Assembly (NCBI GenBank): GCA_026625185.1
Contig: CP113000.1
Location: forward strand, 645,622 to 677,621
Length of the DNA stretch: 32,000 nucleotides
Origin: Thermodesulfobacteriota bacterium
GTDB lineage: Bacteria > Desulfobacterota > WTBG01 > JAGOGO01
Direction of reading: 5' to 3'
The position numbers and the translations under genes are program-made. Under the pieces are notes generated by a model. That model saw only the letters and a program-made list of their open reading frames with translations. It was not told the origin of the DNA and made no database searches. This document shows positions 1,527-32,000 of this stretch, piece after piece (within the stretch, counting starts at the first letter, position 1; each line of letters opens with the position of its first letter).

Positions 1527-1610
1527 GCCGAAGTGGCGGAATTGGCAGACGCGCTAGGTTCAGGGTCTAGTGAGGGCAGCCTCGTAGGGGTTCAAGTCCC
1601 CTCTTCGGCA
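1527..1610 (+). tRNA. tRNA-Leu, anticodon CAG
   Basis: Hand-folded cloverleaf: acceptor GCCGAAG/CTTCGGC plus discriminator A; anticodon stem CTAGG/TCTAG with loop TTCAGGG (anticodon CAG); a long variable arm; T-arm GGGGTTCAAGTCCCC. No CCA is encoded. Confidence 0.9.
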
Positions 1611-6901: not shown

Positions 6902-7616
6902 AGTAATATCCTCAGCGCTCGACTTCCTGTTTCCTCCGGTTTGTTCACTCTGTGGCTCTAAGAACTTATACCAAGCAGGGTCCCTTATATGTAAAGATTG
7001 CTTCAGTTCAATTTCCTTCATTTCCCACCCCGTTTGTGCGCGTTGTGGTAAGCCATTTTTGACTGAAACGACTCGTAGTCATGTCTGTGGAAATTGTTTA
7101 ACTCAGGAACCTTCCTTCAATCTCGTCCGCGCGCTCGGCAGATATGAAGGCGCTCTGGAGACAATCATTCATAATTTTAAATATAAACAGAAATTTTCCA
7201 TGGTAAATCTTTTTAACTTCTTACTTGATAATATGCAAAACCATGAGATTATTTTTGCCTCCTACGATCTCCTGATACCAGTGCCGCTCCACAGAAATCG
7301 TCTTCGGCAAAGAGGATTTAACCAGGCAGTAATTTTAGGAAATATCCTTAAGAAAAAATACCAAATGTCCTTGCAATCCAAGATGCTGCAAAGGATAGTT
7401 TATACTCATCCTCAGGTTACCCTACCCGTAAAAGCAAGAAAGATTAATATGCGAAACGCTTTTAAGGTTAAAGAGTCACAATCGGTTGAAGGAAAAACCA
7501 TTCTCCTTCTTGATGATGTTTACACAACGGGAGCAACGATGAATGAATGCGCCCGGGTTTTAAAAAAATCCGGGGCTTCCCGAGTAGATGGCTTTGTTAT
7601 CGCCCGCGCAGTATAA
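6855..7616 (+). CDS. ComF-family phosphoribosyltransferase-domain protein
   Basis: The N-terminus has Cys clusters (FPPVCSLCG...CKDC, CARCG...CGNC). The C-terminus has the PRTase motif LLLDDVYTTGAT. The first 49 codons of the 6708 ORF overlap rsfS out of frame and are not ComF-like, so I chose the ATG at 6855. Confidence 0.75.
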   Translation: MTRNQLPRFWTGGAAKVISSALDFLFPPVCSLCGSKNLYQAGSLICKDCFSSISFISHPVCARCGKPFLTETTRSHVCGNCLTQEPSFNLVRALGRYEGALETIIHNFKYKQKFSMVNLFNFLLDNMQNHEIIFASYDLLIPVPLHRNRLRQRGFNQAVILGNILKKKYQMSLQSKMLQRIVYTHPQVTLPVKARKINMRNAFKVKESQSVEGKTILLLDDVYTTGATMNECARVLKKSGASRVDGFVIARAV

Positions 7617-15262: not shown

Positions 15263-16780
15263 ATGAAGGTTGAACGACTCTGGGGATCAAGGCTGCAAGA
15301 AGCGCCCGATAAAGAATTTATTAAATTTATTTCCGGCCGAGACATTCAAGGATTACCTCCCTGCGATGAATTGCTTCTCCCCTTTGATATCTGGGGCAAT
15401 CGGGTTCATACGATCATGCTCTGGAAACAGGGGATTATTTCTCAAAGCGACGCTCACTTAATCGTTGCGGGTCTTAAGGAAATTAAAAGCTTATATGAAC
15501 AGGACAAGTTTCCTTTAGACCCATCAAAAGAAGATGTCCACACCAACATTGAAAGCTTTCTGATCGAAAAATATGGAATTGCCGTAGGGGGTAAGCTTCA
15601 TACTGCTCGAAGCCGCAATGATCAGGTTACGCTGGATATGACTCTATTCTTGCGTGAAAAAAACCTCGATTTTCTGAAACGGATCCTTCTTCTCGAAGAT
15701 ACTATCATAAACTTGTCAAGGACTCACGCCGAAACCATCATCCCGGGATATACCCACCACCAGCATGCCATGGTAACCACCTTTGGTCATCTTATCTTCG
15801 CTTACGGAGAATCATTTTTCCGGGACCTCGTGCGGCTTAAACACTGGCATACTCTTTTTAATGCTAATCCCCTGGGAGGCGCTGCTTCCTATGGAACCAG
15901 TTTTCCAATCGATCGGGAACTCACTTCCCGGTTGTTAGGATTTGACCGACCATCATTAAGCTCCCTTGACCTCATAACCAACCGATGGGAAGCCGAAACT
16001 GAGTTGGCGTATGCGATCTCAACGGTTATGAATCATTTAAGCAGTCTGGCTCAGACGCTCATTTTATTTACTACCACAGAATTCGGCTTTGTTACTTTAA
16101 GCGATCGATACTGCGGAGGGAGTTCCATCATGCCGCAGAAACGAAACCCGAGCGCTTTAGAAGTAAGTAAGGCCAAAGCTGCGGTCGCACAGGGACTGCT
16201 CAGTAGCCTCCTCTCGTTGAGCCGAGGATTCTTCGTAGGATACAACCGGGATTCTCAATGGACAAAATATATTATTATGGATTTAATCTATGAATGTGCA
16301 GAAGCGCCTACAATCATGGCTTCAGTGCTTAACACCCTTAAAATCAACCAAGAGAGGGCAAGGGAACTTTGTCTCCTGGGCTTTATTACTGCCACGGATT
16401 TGATGGAAGCCCTGGCCCAGGATTTTTCTATTCCTTTACGGCAAGCAAAAATGGTCATTGAAAGAGCGGTAAAATATTCCGAATCGCAGAACGTTGAAAC
16501 TGTATCGTGGGAAGGATTAATGAGAGCCCTGAAAGAACTGGATGTTACTGTGAATATTTCTCCGGATTTTGTAAAGGGACAGCAGGAACCGGAAACAGTA
16601 GTTCGTCGTCGAAAAGCGATTGGGGGGCCTGCTCCTGAAGTCTTGTTGCGCGCCATTGATACCCTTAGCTCCCAGATACAGGACGTTAAAGTATGGCTTG
16701 CGGAAAAAGAAAACCAGCTTCAATCATCCTACCAAAAGCTGGAGGGACTTGAAAAGAATTTATTAAACCTTACGCCATGA
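15263..16780 (+). CDS. Argininosuccinate lyase-like fumarate-lyase superfamily enzyme (diverged)
   Basis: 505 aa. LWGSRL N-terminus, HTARSRNDQV, and the signature loop GGSSIMPQKRNP. Some ASL-typical blocks differ: GYTHHQHAMV appears where I recall GYTHLQRAQP, and YNRDSQWTKY where I recall YNxDLQEDKE. There is an extra C-terminal tail of about 45 aa that looks coiled-coil. Confidence 0.75.
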   Translation: MKVERLWGSRLQEAPDKEFIKFISGRDIQGLPPCDELLLPFDIWGNRVHTIMLWKQGIISQSDAHLIVAGLKEIKSLYEQDKFPLDPSKEDVHTNIESFLIEKYGIAVGGKLHTARSRNDQVTLDMTLFLREKNLDFLKRILLLEDTIINLSRTHAETIIPGYTHHQHAMVTTFGHLIFAYGESFFRDLVRLKHWHTLFNANPLGGAASYGTSFPIDRELTSRLLGFDRPSLSSLDLITNRWEAETELAYAISTVMNHLSSLAQTLILFTTTEFGFVTLSDRYCGGSSIMPQKRNPSALEVSKAKAAVAQGLLSSLLSLSRGFFVGYNRDSQWTKYIIMDLIYECAEAPTIMASVLNTLKINQERARELCLLGFITATDLMEALAQDFSIPLRQAKMVIERAVKYSESQNVETVSWEGLMRALKELDVTVNISPDFVKGQQEPETVVRRRKAIGGPAPEVLLRAIDTLSSQIQDVKVWLAEKENQLQSSYQKLEGLEKNLLNLTP

Positions 16781-26218: not shown

Positions 26219-27064
26219 TTACTGCGGGTCTTTTTTGAGAAAATCGTTAATTTGGATTACCTTGTCATGAAAGGATGATTCTTTTTTAAGGTGGCAGCCT
26301 TTTTCGATTCTTTCGATATATTTTGATAGCTCCGGATTTTTTTGGATAATCAGGTCTATTTGTTTTAATAACTCTTCAGCATTGAGCTTTATTTCGCTCA
26401 GGTCCAAGTCAAAACCAACTATTTTTTTTAAACACTCAAGGATCTGGCAGGTAATGGGGAAGTTATTGTTGGTAAGATATTGCGGGACATGGCCCCAGAT
26501 ATTTATTCCCTTGATTCCGATTTCCTCCGCTTCCTTGAGAAGAAATGTATGGATGCTTACCGGCCCTTCATATTGCCCGTTTTTTATTCCTGAAGCAACC
26601 ACTTTGTCTTTCAGAACATTATCGGTAAACACTCCTGATATCCAGGGGTTTTGTTTGTGGGTGACATAATCGTACGTTCCTCCTATGGTAATAAGCATTG
26701 CAACCTCAAAATCGGTTGCTAATTTGAGGAAAGATCGGGTAAACTGTTTCCATCGAAGCTGTGGTTCTTTACCGAGGAAAAGAATCAGATCCGGGAAACC
26801 GGCGCTCTTTTTATAAAAGAATTCATACGGAGAGAAAAGAAGGTACTTTACTTCACCGCCATCAATTTTGGCATACGGACGGTTATTGGAATATTTATGA
26901 AAAAGATCTGGATTTACCTCAGCAAACTTTTTTACTCCCAGCCCCTTTTTTAAAAAAGTTAATACATCAGATGAAATACAGCCCGCATTGGGCCATCCCT
27001 CAAATCCGGCAATAAGGATGGGGTGATTTAAATTCGGCTTTTTAGAAAAATTGATGAATCTCAT
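26219..27064 (-). CDS. PAC2 (proteasome assembly chaperone 2-like) family protein
   Basis: 281 aa. HPILIAGFEGWPNAGCISS near the N-terminus and the overall length and layout are typical of bacterial and archaeal PAC2-family proteins. Confidence 0.7.
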   Translation of the reverse strand: MRFINFSKKPNLNHPILIAGFEGWPNAGCISSDVLTFLKKGLGVKKFAEVNPDLFHKYSNNRPYAKIDGGEVKYLLFSPYEFFYKKSAGFPDLILFLGKEPQLRWKQFTRSFLKLATDFEVAMLITIGGTYDYVTHKQNPWISGVFTDNVLKDKVVASGIKNGQYEGPVSIHTFLLKEAEEIGIKGINIWGHVPQYLTNNNFPITCQILECLKKIVGFDLDLSEIKLNAEELLKQIDLIIQKNPELSKYIERIEKGCHLKKESSFHDKVIQINDFLKKDPQ

Positions 27065-27177
27065 GTCTAAAGTATACTACATAGTCTTGGTGAGTCAATT
27101 TTTTCATTTTTTACCATGCTTCCAAGGGGAAGTGTGAGACATCATGGTTATTTTTTCTATTATGTCGGGCAGTTGAT

Positions 27178-28149
27178 ATGAAGCGCGTTGTTTTAGCGGC
27201 TGATCTTGGGGGAACCAATATCCGCGTTGCTGCCATTGATGAACAGGGCACGATTGAGAAACGGCTTCAAAGGCCGACGCACGCGCATGAAGGCGAGGCA
27301 TCGGTTTTGCGAAGCCTCTTTTACGCTCTGGGAGAAGTTTACCAGGCTTTCCCCGAAAACCGGATAAAAGGGGTGGGGGTGGGCATCGCGGGAGCGATTG
27401 ATATTGAAAAGGGTATTGTCACCCAGTCCCCAAACTTAGTGGAATTTGACGGCTACCCCCTCAGAGATAAACTGCAAGCATCTTTTCTTAAACACCTTGC
27501 TATTCTGGTGGACAATGACGCTAATCTCGCGGCCATGGGTGAAAAGTGGAAGGGAGCTGGTGTGGGTGTCAACGACTTAATCTGCCTCACGCTCGGCACG
27601 GGTATCGGCGGCGGCATCATCATCCGGGGCAACCTGGTACATGGCACTGATGGTATGGCGGGTGAGGTTGGTCATGTCACCGTTGATCCGCAAGGCCCGC
27701 CGTGTAACTGCGGCAATCGCGGCTGTTTAGAAGCTTTGGCGTCGGCAACCGCGATCAAACGAGAAGCGATCGAAGCGCTTTTCACGCATCCGGAAAGCGA
27801 GTTACATCAACGGTGTCGCCACAATCCGGAAACCATTACCGCTGAGCTGGTCTATCAGTCAGCCCAAGCCGGAGATCAGATATGCCGAAAAATTTTTCAG
27901 GACATGGGCCGATACCTCGGTATTGGTATTGCCGGCCTGGTCAACATTTTTAATCCGGAGATGGTTGTTCTTGGCGGAAAAGTAAGTAAATCCTGGGATA
28001 TGTTTTTTTCGTTTACCCAAGAAGAAGTACACCAGCGGGCGCTTAAGATTCCAGGGACGCGGGTAAAAATAGTGCCGGCAGTCTGCGGCGATGATGCCGG
28101 ATTGCTGGGCGCGGCGTATTTAGTTTTTCATCAGAAAAAGCTTTCTTAA
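27178..28149 (+). CDS. ROK-family sugar kinase (glucokinase-like)
   Basis: 323 aa. N-terminal ATP motif LAADLGGTNIRVA, DNDANLAA, GTGIGGGII, and the ROK zinc motif GHVTVDPQGPPCNCGNRGCLE. Confidence 0.88.
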   Translation: MKRVVLAADLGGTNIRVAAIDEQGTIEKRLQRPTHAHEGEASVLRSLFYALGEVYQAFPENRIKGVGVGIAGAIDIEKGIVTQSPNLVEFDGYPLRDKLQASFLKHLAILVDNDANLAAMGEKWKGAGVGVNDLICLTLGTGIGGGIIIRGNLVHGTDGMAGEVGHVTVDPQGPPCNCGNRGCLEALASATAIKREAIEALFTHPESELHQRCRHNPETITAELVYQSAQAGDQICRKIFQDMGRYLGIGIAGLVNIFNPEMVVLGGKVSKSWDMFFSFTQEEVHQRALKIPGTRVKIVPAVCGDDAGLLGAAYLVFHQKKLS

Positions 28150-28183
28150 TATTTTAATACTGAACCGGAAAGGGGATTAAAAT

Positions 28184-28897
28184 TTGGAAAAGCAGATTCG
28201 AATAGCAGCTAAAGATCTCGGGCAGCTTGTGCTGCCGGACTTCTGTCCGCGATGTTTTTGGCTCAAGCTCCGGCTTAGGAATCAACTCCCCTTTCAAATT
28301 TTTCCCGGTATCTTCAGCTCGATCGATTCTTACAACAAACGTATCGTTCACACGTGGTTTGACAAATATCATAAACCCCCGGTTTGGATGAGCGGGCTGG
28401 GAGACATAATCGGCTACCGCGAGCCGCCTCATCACTCAAAATTTTATCTTAACGACCCATCAACCGGTGTTCTCTTAACCGGCAGTCCTGACGGGATTTT
28501 TATCCGGGGTGATGGCTCCCACCTTATCGTTGACTATAAAACCGCACGCTACACCGGTACCCAGGACCAGCTTTACCCGATGTATGAGGTGCAGTTAAAC
28601 GCCTATACGCTGATCGGAGAAAGCCTTAACCTCAAGCCGGTTTCCGGCCTGGCCTTAATTTACATGGAACCCATAACCGACAGTCTTTCCGCTGCCCAGG
28701 ATGAAAATCACCGTGACTATGGTTTCTCGATGGGATTTAGCGCCCACATACTGGAAGTAAAGCTTGACCTCATGATGCTTTCTCCTCTGCTTGCAAGAAC
28801 AAGAGATATTTATACTTTGGAAAAAAGTCCGGAAGGTTTGCCAGGATGTAGTGACTGCCGAGCGCTTCAAGAAATTTTTAGACTTGTTTCCCGGTGA
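28184..28897 (+). CDS. PD-(D/E)XK nuclease, Cas4/RecB-like
   Basis: 237 aa. N-terminal CPRCFWL (Cas4-like CPRxxW/Y), GSPDG (motif II Asp), IVDYKT (D/ExK), QLNAY, and C-terminal CSDC. TTG start with GGGGA upstream. Confidence 0.7.
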   Translation: MEKQIRIAAKDLGQLVLPDFCPRCFWLKLRLRNQLPFQIFPGIFSSIDSYNKRIVHTWFDKYHKPPVWMSGLGDIIGYREPPHHSKFYLNDPSTGVLLTGSPDGIFIRGDGSHLIVDYKTARYTGTQDQLYPMYEVQLNAYTLIGESLNLKPVSGLALIYMEPITDSLSAAQDENHRDYGFSMGFSAHILEVKLDLMMLSPLLARTRDIYTLEKSPEGLPGCSDCRALQEIFRLVSR

Positions 28898-28931
28898 GCT
28901 CCATATCTGGCTAATTCCCCTTTTGAAAGAA

Positions 28932-28988
28932 TTTCCTCTCCCCACTGGTGAGAGGATAAAGGTGAGGGGTGACACCGACATTAAGTAT
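28932..28988. repeat. Composite intergenic repeat, copy 0 (A module only)
   Basis: CCTCTCCCCACTGGTGAGAGGATAAAGGTGAGGGGTGACACCGACATTAAG matches 31517-31567 with 3 substitutions. It contains the hairpin CCTCTC..GAGAGG. Confidence 0.75.
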
Positions 28989-29082
28989 TAACCCCCTTAC
29001 AACTTACAACTAAAAACATAGCCCGTAAAACTTATTATCCCCTACCACTGTGGTTTTTTCTTCCATTTTTTTTTAAATTCGC

Positions 29083-29088
29083 TATAAT
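29083..29088 (+). promoter_or_regulatory. Consensus -10 box (TATAAT) upstream of the guaA-B-like gene
   Basis: gcTATAATtc lies 38 nt upstream of the ATG at 29126, preceded by a T-rich tract. GGAGGAG (29114-29120) lies 5 nt before the ATG. The -35 element is weak (CTTCCA at 17-nt spacing). Confidence 0.4.
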
Positions 29089-29125
29089 TCAAAAAATAAT
29101 TTTATTTAACCTTGGAGGAGACGAC

Positions 29126-30094
29126 ATGAGGAAAATGAAAGAAATTAAAGCCGGCACAATGAATGTGAGAAAATTTATGGAAGATAAGGTGCACGATATC
29201 CGTGAAGCCGTTGGTGACGGGCTTGCCATCAACGCGCTCTCGGGAGGCGTTGATTCATCGGTGGTTACCTCGCTGGGGCACCTGGCGCTGGGCAAAAGGC
29301 TGAAAACATATTTCATTGACAACGGCATCATGCGGGAAAACGAGCCTAAGCAAGTGGCGGCGGCTTTTAAAAAGATCGGCATTCCGGTGGAAGTAGTGGA
29401 CGCGTCCAAAGCTTTTTTCTCCGCGCTCAAAGGCCTCACCGACCCGGAAGAAAAAAGAGAAGCCATTACCCAGACATTCTATAAAAAGATATTCGGCAAA
29501 CTGGTGGTTAAAAGCAAGGCTAAATATCTCCTGCAGGGAACTATTCTGACCGATGTGGATGAAACCGTCGCGGGAATCAAAAGGCAGCACAATGTGTTTG
29601 AACAGTTCGGCATTGATCCGCAAAAAGCCTTTGGCTATAAAATTCTGGAGCCGCTCATTGAACTGCGCAAGGACGGCGTGCGCAAAGTCGGTCATGCCTT
29701 GGGTTTGCCGGAGAGTATGTTCGGCCGGATACCATTTCCCGGACCGGCGCTGGCCGCCCGCGTAATCGGCGAAGTCACGCCCGCCAAGATCGCTCTGGTT
29801 AAGAAAGCGACCGCCATTACCGAAGCGGCCCTCAAAGATGTCAAGGCGTTTCAGTATCTGGCTATTTTGCATGAAGACCGCGTTACCGGCATGCGCAACA
29901 ATAAAAGGGTATTCGGCAATCAGATTGAAATCCGCTGCTGGGACAGCCTGGACGCGCGAACCGCCACGCCGACCCGGCTTCCTTTTGATGTCCTGGAAGG
30001 CATCGCCGCCAAAATCACCAAAACAATTCCGGAAGTGGTAAGCGTCACCTACAACATCACCACCAAACCGACCTCAACGATTGAAGCGATTTAA
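29126..30094 (+). CDS. Stand-alone GMP synthase ATP-pyrophosphatase subunit-like protein (GuaA subunit B-like PP-loop ATPase)
   Basis: 322 aa, collinear with the C-terminal two-thirds of GuaA. It has the PP-loop NALSGGVDSS, DPEEKR, LLQGTI, EPLIELRKDGVR, PFPGPALAARV and the C-terminal YNITTKPTSTIEAI (compare DISxKPPATIEWE). No glutamine amidotransferase domain or gene is adjacent. Confidence 0.8.
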   Translation: MRKMKEIKAGTMNVRKFMEDKVHDIREAVGDGLAINALSGGVDSSVVTSLGHLALGKRLKTYFIDNGIMRENEPKQVAAAFKKIGIPVEVVDASKAFFSALKGLTDPEEKREAITQTFYKKIFGKLVVKSKAKYLLQGTILTDVDETVAGIKRQHNVFEQFGIDPQKAFGYKILEPLIELRKDGVRKVGHALGLPESMFGRIPFPGPALAARVIGEVTPAKIALVKKATAITEAALKDVKAFQYLAILHEDRVTGMRNNKRVFGNQIEIRCWDSLDARTATPTRLPFDVLEGIAAKITKTIPEVVSVTYNITTKPTSTIEAI

Positions 30095-30121
30095 AACTGA
30101 AATTTAAAATATTCTCATCTT

Positions 30122-30284
30122 GAGAGGGGTTTCACGGACATTAAGGATTATGGGTTAAGTGAAAAGGGATTAAGTAAATCAGTGAATACGTAGGGGCACG
30201 TTGCAACGTGCCCTTTTTTTCTTTGAATTTTACGGTCTGTATTACTTAATTTGTCAAGGGGAAAGATTGGACCCTCTATCTTCT
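30122..30284. repeat. Composite intergenic repeat, copy 1 (degenerate A module plus B module)
   Basis: 30152-30220 matches 31567-31635 at 66 of 69 positions. 30249-30284 matches 31639-31674 at 32 of 36. The A part is reduced to GAGAGGGGTTTCACGGACATTAAG. Copy-specific insertions are GATTATG and about 25 nt at 30221-30248. Confidence 0.8.
30193..30220 (+). terminator. Rho-independent terminator-like hairpin inside repeat copy 1
   Basis: GGGCACGT-TGCA-ACGTGCCC followed by T7, about 100 nt downstream of the guaA-B-like stop codon and between convergent genes. Confidence 0.65.
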
Positions 30285-31439
30285 CTAATCACTACTTATC
30301 CTGTTTAAATCTGACAATGGAATAACCGTCACATTGCGACCCAAAGGATAAGACTCCTTGCCGGGGTAAAGAATCCATAGATGCTTTATTGATAAGTCTT
30401 GTAATACCGCATTCATTGATCTGGTAACGGTTGGGGCCTGCGCGTATTTTACTCCGACGCCGTAAAGGCCGCCTTTTTTTTGGAACACCAGATCAATCTC
30501 AGCAGCAGCGTGCACCCCCCAGAAAAAAGCTTCGTCTTCTGTTAAGCGGGCGGTTTTAATCGCCTCTTCTAACGCAAAGCCTTCCCAGGAGGCGCCAAGT
30601 TTAGGATGCAAAAGGATATCTTTTTTCCCCTCCAAAGTAAACAGGGCGTGCAAGATACCGGAGTCGCGAAAATAAATCTTTGGCCTTTTGATGATTCTTT
30701 TTTTGGTATTATAAAACCAGGGACGCAACTGACGGACCATGAAGGTTCCGGAAAGCAGATCAAGATACCTTTGCGCAGTGTGGTCAGATATACCCAGACT
30801 TTTGCCTATTTCTGAGGCATTGAATATTTGGCCGTGATAATGCGCAAGCATTCTCCAAAAACGGCCTAATGATCTGGCAGGTATATTAATTCCCAATTGC
30901 GGAATATCCCGTTCTAAAAAAGTTGCAATAAAGTCCTGGCGCCATTGATAGGAAGCCGCTTCGCTTGAGGAGAGAAAGGATCTGGGGAAGGTTCCCCGGA
31001 TCCATAGTTTTTCCGCTTTTTCGGGGCCCAGTAACGAAAGGGAAAACCCGCCGATTTCCGCGTAACTGATCCGGCCGGCAAGCGATTCGGAAGACTGCCT
31101 GATTAAGTCCCGGGAGGCGCTTCCCAGAATCAGATATTTTACCTTTTTCTGGCGGTCGGCCAGAACACGGAGCACCGGAAAAAGATCGGGTGATCGTTGG
31201 ATTTCGTCGATGATAACGAGACCATCAACGTTTCCCAAGGCCAGCAAAGGTTCCTGCAGCCGCTGGGTGTCGCGGGGACTTTCAAGGTCAAAAACAGTGA
31301 CCTGTTTCGGCCATTGCGAAGAAAACTGACGGGCAAGGGTGGTTTTACCGCATTGTCGCGGCCCCAAGATCGCAACAATCGGGTTATTTCTGAGGAGGCG
31401 GTTTAATAGCGCAATCTCTGCGGTTCTTTGTATCTGCAT
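30285..31439 (-). CDS. AAA+ ATPase with C-terminal DUF4143-type domain (AAA_14/DUF4143 family)
   Basis: 384 aa. Walker A ILGPRQCGKTTL, Walker B LVIIDEIQ, and a wHTH-like middle region (IGKSLGISDHTAQRYLDLL). The C-terminal WEGFALEE...EIDLV is consistent with the restriction-endonuclease-like DUF4143 region. Confidence 0.85.
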   Translation of the reverse strand: MQIQRTAEIALLNRLLRNNPIVAILGPRQCGKTTLARQFSSQWPKQVTVFDLESPRDTQRLQEPLLALGNVDGLVIIDEIQRSPDLFPVLRVLADRQKKVKYLILGSASRDLIRQSSESLAGRISYAEIGGFSLSLLGPEKAEKLWIRGTFPRSFLSSSEAASYQWRQDFIATFLERDIPQLGINIPARSLGRFWRMLAHYHGQIFNASEIGKSLGISDHTAQRYLDLLSGTFMVRQLRPWFYNTKKRIIKRPKIYFRDSGILHALFTLEGKKDILLHPKLGASWEGFALEEAIKTARLTEDEAFFWGVHAAAEIDLVFQKKGGLYGVGVKYAQAPTVTRSMNAVLQDLSIKHLWILYPGKESYPLGRNVTVIPLSDLNRISSD

Positions 31440-31445
31440 GACAAG

Positions 31446-31473
31446 AGCATATCATGAAATTTCGATATGTCAA
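31446..31473 (-). promoter_or_regulatory. Candidate promoter giving a leaderless or near-leaderless mRNA for the AAA+ ATPase
   Basis: On the minus strand: TTGACA (31473-31468), a 16-nt spacer ending in TGa, then TATGCT (31451-31446). The ATG (31439) starts 7 nt after the -10 box and no Shine-Dalgarno sequence is present. An imperfect 12-bp inverted repeat (ATGAAATTTCGA / TCGAATTTTCAT, 31454-31486) overlaps the promoter. Confidence 0.35.
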
Positions 31474-31513
31474 GTCGAATTTTCATAATCCAAGGCCGGG
31501 CATTATTCTTTTA

Positions 31514-31676
31514 TCTCCTCTCCCCGCTGGGGAGAGGATAAAGGTGAGGGGTGACACGGACATTAAGGGTTAAGTGAAAAGGGATTAAGTAAATCAGTGA
31601 ATACGTGGGGGCGCGTTGCAACGCGCCCTTTTTTTGTTCATTTGTCAAGAGGAAAGATTTGACCCTCCATCTTCGA
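31514..31676. repeat. Composite intergenic repeat, copy 2 (complete A plus B modules)
   Basis: The A module has the hairpin CCTCTCCCC-GCT-GGGGAGAGG followed by ATAAAGGTGAGGGGTGACACGGACATTAAG. The B module has GGTTAAGTGAAAAGGGATTAAGTAAATCAGTGAATACGT, the palindrome GGGCGCGTTGCAACGCGCCC followed by T7 (31607-31635), and then TTTGTCAAGAGGAAAGATTTGACCCTCCATCTTC. Confidence 0.8.
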
Positions 31677-31847
31677 GTCCTGCGCCCAATCAGGCACCTC
31701 TCGGTATCGGTAATCACGAGGCACAAATGGAAGAACTTTCATCATATTCCAGCGCTCTCATCCTTTATAGTGATCCGCAAAACCTCACTGCTAAGAATGT
31801 TATAATGTTATGGACGTCCCCCATGTTTCTTCTGGTTGATGGTGAAT

Positions 31848-32000
31848 TCAAATTGCAAGTGCACCACGAGCTGCATTCCAGAACACTTCATAGGGTGTCC
31901 GGTAGTTGAGAGATTTTCTTGGCCGATTATTAAGCCTTTTAACAGCACGAGAAATATCACGTTCGGTAATTTTTCTCATGTAAGTTCCTTTCGGAAAATA
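31848..32000 (-). mobile_element. IS30-family transposase gene, C-terminal 50 codons; the element continues past the window end
   Basis: The minus-strand translation YFPKGTYMRKITERDISRAVKRLNNRPRKSLNYRTPYEVFWNAARGALAI* carries the IS30 hallmark (Y)FPKG...LNxRPRKxLxxxTPxEVF. The stop is TGA at 31850-31848. This ORF is not in the supplied ORF track because it is truncated by the window edge. Confidence 0.8.

What the first reader, a model, noticed from the sequence alone, without database searches (positions are those of the whole stretch)
28932..31676. One composite repeat punctuates three consecutive accessory genes in a repeat-gene-repeat-gene-repeat layout
The same intergenic element occurs three times within 2.8 kb, at 28932-28988, 30122-30284 and 31514-31676. 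It separates the Cas4-like nuclease, the orphan GuaA-B-like PP-loop ATPase, the AAA+/DUF4143 ATPase and the IS30 copy. Only copy 2 is complete. Copy 1 has a shortened A module and two private insertions, and copy 0 has only the A module. The spacers are gene-sized (core-to-core offsets of 1160 and 1422 bp), and each enclosed gene appears to carry its own promoter. This looks like a modular, cassette-like organisation, or like repeated insertion into or recombination at a MITE/REP-like element. It does not look like ordinary operon structure. I recall A-module-like sequences (CTCTCCCC..GGGGAGAGG followed by AAGGTGAGGGGT) as intergenic repeats in several unrelated phyla, where they get mistranslated as ...PLPxGERxKVRG peptides. 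I do not know of an established function for them.
Basis: partly seen in the sequence, partly recalled or inferred. Interest (0 to 1): 0.7.

Follow-up and report, generated by a model that had tools for sequence, protein, structure and literature searches.

The report
BoxC-type triplex repeat plus duplicated terminator
The three repeats are real, but they are a patchwork of a known, very widespread triplex-prone intergenic repeat (BoxC/PIT/TM) and a duplicated copy of one gene's own terminator, sitting at the seams of a small lineage-specific gene islet rather than forming a new cassette system.

Summary
Three related copies lie at 28931-28991, 30122-30283 and 31513-31674.

- **A module.** It is a known element: a BoxC/PIT/TM potential intrastrand-triplex motif (Holder et al. 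2015, PMC4666352). Copy 2 gives a perfect 10-triad purine motif, copy 0 has one mismatch, and copy 1 has decayed to a 5-bp hairpin. The same motif was found in more than 120 loci from over 15 phyla and in 5408 of 5426 E. coli genomes.
- **B module and hairpin.** These are not part of a mobile element. They are the PP-loop gene's own 3' flank and intrinsic terminator, conserved behind the same gene in its closest relative found (L149). Copy 2 is therefore a displaced duplicate of that flank.
- **Dispersal.** Core, B and tail were found nowhere else in the data I could search.
- **Location.** All copies lie inside a 6.36-kb segment that replaces a 408-bp spacer in a related Smithellaceae genome.
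- **What is missing.** There is no integrase and no attC, TIR or TSD feature. No cassette boundary is conserved.

Most likely reading: a structure-prone triplex repeat marks the junctions of a mosaic islet built by local duplication and insertion, and the hairpins act as ordinary terminators. The causal role of the triplex motif is inferred, not shown. This is a new member of a known kind, of modest interest.

The parts
28132..32000 (.). Left part of a 6.36-kb lineage-specific islet. The whole islet is L001 9007-15362, which equals window 28132 to about 34487, past the window end. A related genome has a 408-bp spacer in its place.
   Evidence: blastn of L130 (PAC2 protein 81% identical) against L001: homology stops at L001 9006 and resumes at 15363. 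Gene order in L130 is ROK, then DUF3786, then a 575-aa partial ORF whose DNA aligns to the L001 DUF3786-uvrA stretch.
28184..28897 (+). PD-(D/E)XK nuclease gene (weak Cas4-like match), absent next to ROK in relatives
   Evidence: Pfam PDDEXK_1 E=1e-5. PADLOC Cas4b E=0.0046. Absent in L128, L130 and L131.
28934..28969 (+). Copy 0 triplex motif (TM): TCCTCTCCCC-ACT-GGTGAGAGGA-TAA-AGGTGAGGGG, 10 triads with 1 mismatch
   Evidence: Own TM finder and triad table.
28970..28991 (+). Copy 0 'core' (TGACACCGACATTAAGTATTAA). Similarity to the other copies ends here.
   Evidence: The sequence after 28991 is not similar to the B module.
29045..29125 (+). T-run, promoter-like region and Shine-Dalgarno site of the PP-loop gene, conserved in L149, the closest relative of this gene with recoverable flanks
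   Evidence: Local alignment to L149 upstream region, 0 of 1000 shuffles as good. Promoter-like site at 29072-29100.
29126..30094 (+). PP-loop ATPase gene (GMP synthase C-terminal-like). Highly conserved in Smithellaceae, with a different neighbourhood in different relatives.
   Evidence: Pfam and NCBIfam matches. Homologues at 85-92% identity. Neighbourhoods in relatives.
30113..30125 (+). Copy 1 decayed hairpin TCTCA-TCT-TGAGA in place of the TM. Homologous to the hairpin ATATCCCCTCTTGAGAGGGGT in L149.
   Evidence: Fold. Local alignment 19/22, 0 of 1000 shuffles as good.
30122..30146 (+). Copy 1 core (GAGAGGGGTTTCACGGACATTAAGG)
30147..30191 (+). Copy 1 B segment, including a private 7-nt unit (30147-30153) and a 14-nt internal tandem (GGGTTAAGTGAAAA / GGGATTAAGTAAAT). 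It is the native 3' flank of the PP-loop gene.
   Evidence: Homology to the L149 downstream region, 0 of 1000 shuffles as good.
30192..30222 (+). Intrinsic terminator of the PP-loop gene (GGGCACGTTGCAACGTGCCC plus a T-run)
   Evidence: Terminator scan. Conserved in L149. One A-T versus G-C compensatory pair relative to copy 2.
30224..30247 (+). Private ~24-nt insertion in copy 1. It is complementary to ATTAAGTAAATCAG of the B segment, so it extends the hairpin.
   Evidence: Inverted repeat I15. DNA fold.
30249..30283 (+). Copy 1 tail. It ends 1 nt before the stop codon of the AAA+ gene.
30285..31439 (-). AAA_14 + DUF4143 ATPase gene, matching a candidate phage-defence family (PADLOC PDC-S01). 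It is bracketed by copies 1 and 2.
   Evidence: Pfam. PADLOC PDC-S01 E=1e-79.
31446..31473 (-). Promoter-like site for the AAA+ gene (TTGACA-16-TATGCT, TG-extended)
31516..31551 (+). Copy 2 triplex motif: TCCTCTCCCC-GCT-GGGGAGAGGA-TAA-AGGTGAGGGG, a perfect 10-triad purine motif
   Evidence: 80-92% identical to E. coli intergenic sites, which I take to be BoxC, in 5408 of 5426 genomes.
31552..31573 (+). Copy 2 core
31574..31636 (+). Copy 2 B segment and terminator hairpin with T-run. This is a displaced duplicate of the PP-loop gene's 3' flank, with no co-directional gene upstream.
31640..31674 (+). Copy 2 tail
31675..31840 (-). Possible degraded 3' remainder of a BrnT-like toxin gene. Its N-terminus lies on the far side of the IS30.
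   Evidence: Reconstruction without the IS gives MKAIRFEWDAQKNKINQKKHG.... Pfam BrnT_toxin E=0.049, which is weak.
31841..32000 (-). IS30-family insertion sequence (left inverted repeat and transposase C-terminus; continues beyond the window)
   Evidence: 26-nt IRs at L001 12716-12741 and 13798-13823, with GAT duplication. NCBIfam transpos_IS30 E=1.8e-88.

Best explanation
The 'composite repeat' is a patchwork of two unrelated things.

1. A ~60-nt BoxC/PIT/TM-type element. It consists of a pyrimidine arm, its purine complement and a mirror-repeat purine third strand, followed by a ~22-nt lineage-specific 'core'. On single-stranded DNA it can fold into a hairpin or an intrastrand purine-motif triplex. 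It is present three times here: once perfect, once with one mismatch, and once decayed.
2. The PP-loop gene's own 3' flank: a heptad-repeat B segment, an intrinsic terminator and a 35-nt tail. This flank was duplicated once together with the adjoining triplex element. As a result a 1.2-kb defence-candidate AAA+ gene is bracketed by two ~165-bp direct repeats.

Everything lies inside a 6.36-kb lineage-specific islet between ROK and DUF3786/uvrA.

Proposed mechanism:
- The triplex or hairpin-prone element stalls replication on single-stranded DNA.
- Stalling provokes slippage, template switching and illegitimate or short-homology recombination.
- Gene-sized DNA and local duplications therefore accumulate next to it.
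- The G+C-rich hairpins with T-runs act as ordinary terminators that keep each monocistronic gene insulated.

Shown here: the identity and folding potential of the A module, its wide distribution, the islet status, and the homology of B and the terminator to the gene's native flank.

Inferred: that the triplex element caused the rearrangements, and the order of events.
For: - **A module is a triplex motif.** There is a perfect 10-triad motif in copy 2 and a 1-mismatch motif in copy 0. These are the only such motifs in 32 kb, and 0 of 200 dinucleotide shuffles give any.
- **It matches the published class.** Architecture and sequence family match BoxC/PIT/TMECO, which forms a triplex in vitro and sits in locally hypervariable intergenic regions (PMC4666352).
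- **Direct sequence similarity to E. coli.** The A module matches intergenic sites, which I take to be BoxC, in 5408 of 5426 E. coli genomes. Only the A module matches.
- **Wide distribution.** More than 120 loci in many phyla carry the motif. The unconstrained base before the pyrimidine arm is C in 127 of 128 hits.
- **B and terminator belong to the gene.** They are homologous to the 3' flank of the same gene in L149, its closest relative with recoverable flanks (0 of 1000 shuffles). Copy 2 is closer to that relative than copy 1 (scores 46 vs 41).
- **The hairpin is maintained.** The stem keeps pairing through an A-T to G-C double change.
- **Islet status.** L130 aligns up to the ROK end and again from the DUF3786 end, with 408 bp where this genome has 6356 bp.
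- **Slippage and template-switch signatures in the copies.** These are a 7-nt unit gain, a 14-nt tandem, and a 24-nt insertion complementary to the B segment.
- **No sign of dispersal.** No other copy of core, B or tail was found anywhere searched.
Against: - The causal link between triplex motif and rearrangement rests on a correlation reported in E. coli. Triplex formation was not detected in vivo there (PMC4666352).
- I could search only about 45 kb of the source genome. A genome-wide family of TM+core, or of the whole composite, is therefore not excluded.
- Copies 0 and 1 overlap by about 30 nt (24/30 identical), and their mismatches to copy 2 fall on opposite sides of a possible crossover. 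This also fits reciprocal recombination at a short site.
- The islet comparison rests on one relative (L130).
- How a ~165-bp block came to flank the AAA+ gene is not explained in detail.
Confidence: 0.55

Rival explanations
1. Bystander model. The repeats are only the debris of a local segmental or tandem duplication of the PP-loop gene's flank, followed by gene insertion or replacement. The triplex motif happens to be there and plays no causal part.
For: - B, terminator and tail occur only here and belong natively to the PP-loop gene.
- IS30 activity and a possible truncated toxin gene show that the islet is being reshuffled by other means.
- A second, unrelated direct-repeat pair flanks the DUF4404 gene without any triplex motif.
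Against: - There are three copies of the TM+core unit within 2.8 kb and none in the other ~29 kb of the window, plus one unrelated TM in the ~13 kb that continues past the window end.
- Copy 0 carries TM+core without B, so a single block duplication does not explain it.
- Published data link this motif class to local variability.
Confidence: 0.18
2. The whole ~165-nt composite is a dispersed non-autonomous mobile element (MITE/REP-like) of the source genome. It has landed, or been recombined, three times here.
For: - The direct copies are 90-94% identical.
- In other genomes the triplex motif comes with lineage-specific flanks repeated at several loci, for example in Dyella/Rhodanobacter, Reyranella and one Omnitrophota MAG.
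Against: - The two ends of the element share no terminal inverted repeat, and no target duplication is visible.
- B and the terminator are the native flank of the PP-loop gene in a relative that lacks the A and core modules there.
- No further copy appears in about 45 kb of the same genome, in about 160 kb of Smithellaceae loci, or in any collection scan.
Confidence: 0.12
3. The copies are functional RNA elements: a 3'-UTR or terminator-linked regulatory RNA. Copy 2 would be an orphan ~135-nt small RNA, transcribed from the weak promoter at 31462-31489 and ending at the terminator.
For: - The plus strand folds better than shuffles (z = -3.3).
- A 40-nt stretch of B is identical in copies 1 and 2, and the terminator stem shows a compensatory change.
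- A promoter-like site lies upstream of copy 2.
Against: - No Rfam family matches, even at E<=5.
- According to PMC4666352, purine-motif triplexes cannot form in RNA.
- Only three homologous sequences exist, so covariation cannot be tested.
- The promoter match is weak (9/12) and such matches are no more frequent than in shuffles.
Confidence: 0.08
4. Site-specific cassette capture. The ~30-nt core is a recombination site at which promoter-bearing single-gene circles (1160 bp carrying the PP-loop gene, 1422 bp carrying the AAA+ gene) are integrated by an unlinked recombinase, in an integron-like way.
For: - Copy 0 (A+core) and copy 1 (core+B) look like attL and attR of one split element.
- Their mismatches to copy 2 fall on opposite sides of 'CAC'.
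- The PP-loop gene sits in at least four different neighbourhoods among relatives.
Against: - No integrase or recombinase other than the IS30 transposase appeared among the ORFs I scanned with Pfam or among the precomputed gene calls covering the ~45 kb.
- B is natively linked to the PP-loop gene, so it is not a resident attB half.
- The flanks of the PP-loop unit are not conserved between relatives beyond about 100 nt.
- The element has no attC-type imperfect palindrome.
- The mismatch pattern has a post-hoc probability of only roughly 0.02-0.1.
Confidence: 0.07

Closest known systems
BoxC / PIT (potential intrastrand triplex) / TMECO triplex motifs (Bergler 1992; Hoyne et al. 2000; Holder et al. 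2015, PMC4666352)
   Same: - Same architecture: a pyrimidine arm of 9-10 nt, a loop of 3-6, the complementary purine arm, a loop of 3, and a mirror purine arm with G*G-C, A*A-T and T*A-T triads.
- Same sequence family: ...CTCTCCCC...GGGGAGAGG...GGTGAGGGG.
- 80-92% identical to E. coli sites that I take to be BoxC.
- Intergenic position, and location in a variable region.
   Different: - It fails the literal TMECO pattern CCCTCNCCC-N3-6-GGGNGAGGG-N3-GGGNGAGGG by a one-triad register change (a T-A*A end triad in place of C-G*G).
- The host is a Smithellaceae (Thermodesulfobacteriota), outside the proteobacterial set in which TMECO was counted.
- Here it is followed by a lineage-specific 22-nt core.
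REP/BIME elements and their RAYT transposases
   Same: Short, structured, intergenic repeats that are often near terminators and have been linked to genome plasticity.
   Different: There is no GTAG-type 5' motif and no RAYT gene in the 45 kb seen. The defining feature here is the three-part mirror/triplex arrangement, not a simple palindrome.
MITEs (for example Correia/NEMIS, ERIC, Nezha)
   Same: Size (~165 nt), a structured RNA or DNA fold, and possession of a terminator.
   Different: No terminal inverted repeats, no target-site duplication and no cognate transposase ends (the IS30 IRs are unrelated). Half of the unit is a gene's native 3' flank.
Integron gene cassettes with attC sites
   Same: A repeat-gene-repeat-gene-repeat layout with gene-sized spacers.
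   Different: No IntI and no attC-type imperfect palindrome with R''/L''/L'/R' boxes. The genes carry their own promoters, one gene is inverted relative to the repeat, and the repeats are not the same unit at each junction.
Rho-independent (intrinsic) terminators
   Same: The B-module hairpin GGGCRCGTTGCAACGYGCCC plus a T7 run is a textbook terminator. It is conserved behind the PP-loop gene in a relative.
   Different: Copy 2 has no co-directional gene to terminate. It is a displaced duplicate.

Membership tests
BoxC/PIT/TM intrastrand triplex motif (ITxF class II, purine motif) | Three consecutive blocks: a pyrimidine arm, its complement, and a mirror purine arm. Stems are 6-15 nt with at most 1 mismatch, and loops are 1-6 nt. 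| tested here: met
   Copy 2 gives 10 triads with 0 mismatches and loops of 3 and 3. Copy 0 gives 10 triads with 1 mismatch. Copy 1 is not met because it has decayed.
BoxC/PIT/TM intrastrand triplex motif | The literal TMECO consensus CCCTCNCCC-N3-6-GGGNGAGGG-N3-GGGNGAGGG | tested here: not met
   Reading the sequence shows the window copies have TCCTCTCCC(C)/GGGAGAGGA/AGGTGAGGG. The end triad is T-A*A instead of C-G*G. The pattern itself is taken from PMC4666352.
BoxC/PIT/TM intrastrand triplex motif | Over-represented relative to chance, intergenic, and highly conserved in sequence across genomes | tested here: met
   - 0 of 200 shuffles of the window give any TM.
- More than 120 loci match where about 0.03 would be expected under uniform base composition (my own estimate).
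- 48% of hits lie inside long stop-free frames, while such frames cover 89% of the loci.
- E. coli matches lie under no annotated feature.
BoxC/PIT/TM intrastrand triplex motif | Forms a triplex in vitro (CD/NMR) | not testable with these tools
   Shown only for E. coli TMECO oligonucleotides (PMC4666352). The ViennaRNA DNA fold gives the hairpin only.
MITE | Terminal inverted repeats and a target-site duplication | tested here: not met
   No inverted-repeat pair joins the two ends of the element. The flanks of the three copies share no duplication.
MITE / REP | Many dispersed copies in the host genome | tested here: inconclusive
   No further copy was found in about 45 kb of the source contig, in about 160 kb of relatives, or in about 1 Mb of other loci. 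The whole MAG could not be searched.
Integron cassette array | An IntI tyrosine recombinase with attI next to the array | tested here: not met
   No integrase domain appeared among the window ORFs I scanned with Pfam or among the precomputed gene calls for the extension.
Integron cassette array | attC sites: imperfect inverted repeats spanning the whole site, with RYYYAAC...GTTRRRY boundaries | tested here: not met
   Folds show separate local hairpins and no site-spanning palindrome. Rfam gives no attC-like or any other hit.
Intrinsic terminator | A G+C-rich hairpin followed by a T-run, downstream of a co-directional gene and conserved with it | tested here: met
   Copy 1: 10-bp stem plus T7, about 100 nt after the PP-loop stop codon, and homologous to the site behind the same gene in L149. 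Copy 2 has the hairpin but no co-directional gene upstream.

The most novel reading that the evidence does not exclude
The TM+core unit is a recombination landing pad at which promoter-bearing single-gene units are captured without a linked integrase. The units here would be the 1160-bp PP-loop unit and the 1422-bp AAA+ unit. This would explain the TM-gene-TM-gene-TM layout, the attL/attR-like split of copies 0 and 1, and the different neighbourhoods of the highly conserved PP-loop gene in relatives. It would give the cross-phylum BoxC/TM repeats a concrete role as gene-capture sites.
Probability: 0.08. Interest if true: 0.75.

Novelty: new member of a known kind. Interest (0 to 1): 0.3.

Why it matters
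It removes an apparent novelty. The widely mistranslated 'PLPxGERxKVRG' repeat is the BoxC/PIT/TM triplex motif, and the gene-punctuating 'composite' is that motif plus a duplicated gene terminator.

It also adds a clean natural example, outside the Proteobacteria, of such a motif sitting at the seams of a recently assembled accessory islet. That fits the proposal that these motifs promote local genome plasticity. In addition, it shows that near-identical motif copies occur in far more phyla than the set in which TMECO was originally counted. Why one ~35-nt sequence recurs across phyla remains an open question.

Tried and rejected
- **Rfam.** Searches at the gathering threshold and at E<=5 gave nothing relevant, only chance sub-threshold hits.
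- **Metagenome scan for the core.** It gave one chance hit inside a coding region, and the collection does not hold the source sample.
- **Viral scans.** Three scans for B, core and tail found nothing.
- **Mistranslated peptide search.** A protein search with the mistranslated minus-strand peptide of copy 2 found no candidate.
- **Strain variants.** Look-ups by the exact ROK, PP-loop and AAA+ proteins returned the same arrangement in every contig. No variant lacks a gene or the IS30.
- **Split-element idea.** I first thought copies 0 and 1 were one element split by a 1160-bp insertion. It is weakened because B is natively linked to the PP-loop gene in L149.
- **Diverged-B idea.** The private part of copy 0 is not a diverged B module; similarity is no better than shuffles.
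- **IS30 abutting or mobilising the repeat.** Rejected. The IS30 IRs are unrelated to the repeat and lie 166 bp away.
- **Shine-Dalgarno role.** The motif supplying a ribosome-binding site for an opposite-strand gene holds for only 6 of 118 hits, and not for the window copies.
- **Integron reading.** Rejected; see the membership test.
- **Plasmid search.** Only the A module matches, mainly in Azospirillum replicons.

Full report
**Observation**

The repeat finder on 27000-32000 gives:
- a 61-nt family at 28931-28991 and 31513-31573 (90% identical);
- a 77-nt family at 30147-30223 and 31562-31638 (94%);
- a 47-nt tail at 30237-30283 and 31628-31674 (83%);
- a 39-nt stretch shared by all three, with offsets of 1160 and 1422.

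Pattern searches with up to 3 mismatches find only these copies in the 32-kb window and none in 100 shuffles. Copy 2 is complete. Copy 1 lacks the long A hairpin and has a 7-nt and a ~24-nt private insertion. Copy 0 shares only the A module and about 22 nt after it.

**Genes**

- 28184-28897 (+) is a PD-(D/E)XK nuclease.
- 29126-30094 (+) is a PP-loop ATPase with a GMP-synthase C-terminal domain.
- 30285-31439 (-) is an AAA_14 + DUF4143 ATPase. It matches the PADLOC defence candidate PDC-S01 at E=1e-79.
- The rest of the window is housekeeping: ribF, obg, proB, proA, nadD, argG, argH, rsmB and others.
- The window is a JGI contig. The same locus, extended by 13 kb, is in MAG GCA_029216075.1 (L001, L136).
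- Names attached to homologues place the organism in Smithellaceae/Syntrophales.

**What the A module is**

They come from:
- Xanthomonadales, Reyranella and other Alphaproteobacteria;
- Thermodesulfobacteriota/Syntrophaceae, Omnitrophota, Dehalococcoidia and other Chloroflexota;
- Rokubacteria, Methylomirabilota, Nitrospirota and Nitrospinota;
- Planctomycetota including anammox bacteria, Elusimicrobiota and Verrucomicrobiota;
- Clostridia, Ignavibacteria, Acidobacteriota, Atribacterota, Armatimonadetes, Aerophobetes, Stahlbacteria and a CPR genome.

By my own estimate, about 0.03 matches would be expected under uniform base composition.

A full-text search for the two purine words led to Holder et al. 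[quoted passage not shown] The motif is the element first called BoxC, then PIT, then TM/TMECO:
- a pyrimidine arm, a loop, the complementary purine arm, a 3-nt loop, and a mirror purine arm;
- it forms a stable purine-motif triplex in vitro;
- it is always intergenic in E. coli;
- earlier work found no promoter or terminator activity;
- triplex formation was not detected in vivo;
- it sits in regions that vary much more between E. coli strains than control intergenic regions.

The window copies fit this class.
- Copy 2 reads TCCTCTCCCC-GCT-GGGGAGAGGA-TAA-AGGTGAGGGG, which gives ten perfect triads (T-A*A, C-G*G, T-A*T). Copy 0 has one mismatch.
- My triplex finder reports only these two sites in the window and none in 200 dinucleotide-preserving shuffles.
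- Among the 128 genome hits, the base before the pyrimidine arm, which my pattern did not fix, is C in 127.
- Hits are depleted in long stop-free frames: 48% lie inside them, against 89% coverage of the loci.
- blastn of copy 2 against 5,426 complete E. coli genomes matches 5,408 of them at 80-92% identity. Only the A module matches, and the listed matches lie under no annotated feature.
- Plasmid hits, mainly Azospirillum replicons, also cover only the A module.

The window copies miss the literal TMECO consensus by one triad: T-A*A in place of C-G*G. I therefore file them as members of the class, not of the E. coli subfamily.

**What the rest of the 'composite' is**

Core, B and tail occur nowhere else that I could look:
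- not in about 160 kb of Smithellaceae loci;
- not in viral contigs;
- not among called proteins, tested by searching with the mistranslated peptide.

The metagenome scan returned only a chance hit in a coding region.

The decisive result came from L149, the closest relative of the PP-loop gene whose flanks I could recover (CDS 89.7% identical in DNA).
- There the gene is followed, 10 nt after its stop codon, by AAGGGAATAAGTGAATAGTGAAT...ACGTAGGGGCGCGGTATCCGCGCCCTTTTT.
- That sequence is homologous to the B segment and terminator of copies 1 and 2. No shuffle in 1000 scores as well, and copy 2 scores higher than copy 1 (46 vs 41).
- About 100 nt upstream of the gene (T-run, promoter-like region, Shine-Dalgarno site) are homologous too.

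So B and the hairpin are the PP-loop gene's own 3' flank and intrinsic terminator. Copy 2 is a displaced duplicate of that flank, without a co-directional gene. The stem differs between copies 1 and 2 by a compensatory A-T/G-C pair, and L149 shares the G-C state.

Relative to L149, the window has about 55 extra nucleotides between the stop codon and B. These carry the core and a decayed hairpin, ATATTCTCATCTTGAGAGGGGT. That hairpin is homologous (19/22, 0 of 1000 shuffles) to a perfect hairpin, ATATCCCCTCTTGAGAGGGGT, which lies 370 nt upstream of the gene in L149.

**Context**

- In L130, a relative whose PAC2 protein is 81% identical, DNA homology to the source contig runs to 18 nt before the ROK stop codon. 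It resumes 4 nt before the end of the DUF3786 gene. L130 has 408 bp where the source has 6,356 bp.
- The nuclease, the PP-loop gene, the AAA+ gene, the IS30, a DUF4404 gene and all three repeat copies lie in that extra segment.
- Two more distant relatives have other genes next to ROK.
- The PP-loop protein is 85-92% identical across many Smithellaceae, so it is not an accessory orphan. Its neighbourhood differs, however: after a MerR/acetyl-CoA synthetase pair in one group, next to a His_biosynth gene in another, next to a cupin gene in a third, and next to a GIY-YIG gene in L149.
- DNA homology among these relatives stops at the CDS plus about 30 nt. No conserved cassette boundary exists.

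**Fine structure**

- The IS30 spans L001 12716-13823 (window 31841 onward), with 26-nt inverted repeats and a GAT duplication.
- It interrupts an ORF that reads MKAIRFEWDAQKNKI|NQKKHG once the IS is removed. This may be a BrnT-like toxin N-terminus whose remainder has degraded. The Pfam support is weak: E=0.049, 14.4 bits against a 34.5-bit cutoff.
- Copy 2's tail is therefore 166 bp from the IS30. Copy 1's tail ends 1 nt before the AAA+ stop codon.
- The 7-nt insertion in copy 1 is a unit gain in a heptad-like run. B contains a 14-nt tandem.
- The 24-nt insertion is complementary to ATTAAGTAAATCAG on the other side of the terminator, so it extends the hairpin. These look like slippage or template-switch products, which is an inference.
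- A second, unrelated direct-repeat pair flanks the DUF4404 gene, and heptamer arrays lie beside it.

**Interpretation**

- The layout is real and sits in accessory, recently assembled DNA. It is not one repeat family acting as a cassette boundary.
- It is a TM+core unit present three times, plus one duplication of a gene's terminator region.
- No integrase, attC-like palindrome, terminal inverted repeat or target duplication is present.
- The best-supported reading is that a structure-prone BoxC/TM element marks, and probably promotes, local duplication and insertion. This would work through replication stalling, slippage and recombination, as proposed for E. coli. The hairpins would serve as ordinary terminators.
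- The causal step is inferred.

Alternatives that remain open:
- the motif is a bystander;
- TM+core, or the whole unit, is dispersed in the unsearched part of the genome;
- copy 2 is a small RNA gene;
- the ~30-nt overlap of copies 0 and 1 (24/30 identical, with mismatches to copy 2 on opposite sides of a possible crossover) reflects site-specific capture of single-gene circles.

The last is the most novel reading, and I rate it unlikely.

**Limits**

- Only about 45 kb of the source genome was accessible.
- The islet comparison rests on one relative.
- The relation to L149 rests on one 2.25-kb contig.

Noticed in passing
window 31841-32000; L001 12716-13823: The IS30-family element has 26-nt inverted repeats and a 3-bp GAT duplication. 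It is inserted into the N-terminal part of a possible BrnT-like toxin gene (MKAIRFEWDAQKNKI|NQKKHG...). The remainder of that gene (window 31675-31840) is frameshifted and truncated. The Pfam match is weak (E=0.049).
   Followed up: partly
L001 14006-14061 and 15127-15182: A second, unrelated direct-repeat pair (about 56 nt, 75% identical, GGTCAATAATTCTTTTTGTTTTTAGCCGG...) flanks the small DUF4404 gene. This is another repeat-gene-repeat unit in the same islet.
   Followed up: no
L001 14075-14207: Heptamer tandem arrays lie just right of the IS30: (AACGAGG)x5, (TTAAGGG)x2.6 and (AGGAGCG)x7. The B module contains related TTAAGGG-like heptads and a 14-nt tandem.
   Followed up: no
L136 3179-3211 (minus strand of L136), between a multihaem cytochrome gene and uvrA: A different perfect 9-triad intrastrand triplex motif, CTCCCCTTT-GAT-AAAGGGGAG-TAA-GAGGGGTTT, in the same genome. 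It lies directly after the cytochrome gene's stop codon.
   Followed up: no
L008-L127: The triplex motif recurs with near-identical sequence in more than 120 loci from over 15 phyla. Of 128 hits, 36 have an inverted partner within 160 nt and 21 have the complementary pyrimidine strand directly upstream, forming a long hairpin. Flanks are lineage-specific but repeated within a lineage. Why one ~35-nt sequence is shared across phyla is unexplained.
   Followed up: partly
L033, L035, L036, L054, L066, L087: In 6 of 118 TM hits (three of them with the same ...CATGTTC spacing in Reyranella-like Alphaproteobacteria) the pyrimidine arm lies 2-7 nt from an opposite-strand ATG that opens a long ORF. 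The purine arm (GGAGAGG) could then serve as that gene's ribosome-binding site.
   Followed up: partly
window 30285-31439 (-): The AAA_14 + DUF4143 ATPase matches the PADLOC phage-defence candidate PDC-S01 (E=1e-79). No NCBIfam model matches it.
   Followed up: partly
window 29126-30094 (+): The PP-loop protein scores below the NCBIfam cut-off for guaA_Cterm (292 vs 338.75 bits). It is nevertheless 85-92% conserved across Smithellaceae, always as a stand-alone gene without an adjacent glutamine amidotransferase subunit in the loci seen. Its real function may not be GMP synthesis.
   Followed up: no
L149 528-549: A perfect hairpin, ATATCCCCTCTTGAGAGGGGT, lies next to a GIY-YIG gene, 370 nt upstream of the PP-loop gene. 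It is homologous to the decayed hairpin in copy 1 (window 30108-30130), which lies downstream of that gene.
   Followed up: partly
L145 about 7070-7130: Downstream of the Smithella sp. SDB PP-loop gene there is another purine/pyrimidine mirror-like motif (GAGGGAAAGAGGGAGGG...CCCCCTCCCTTT). It is a possible triplex or hairpin element of a different sequence.
   Followed up: no
window 28184-28897: Gene callers disagree on the nuclease start: 237 aa from a TTG at 28184 in most JGI calls, against 169 aa from an ATG in the NCBI MAG and one JGI contig.
   Followed up: no
window 1527-1610: A tRNA gene (Rfam RF00005, 49.8 bits), the only Rfam match in the window.
   Followed up: no
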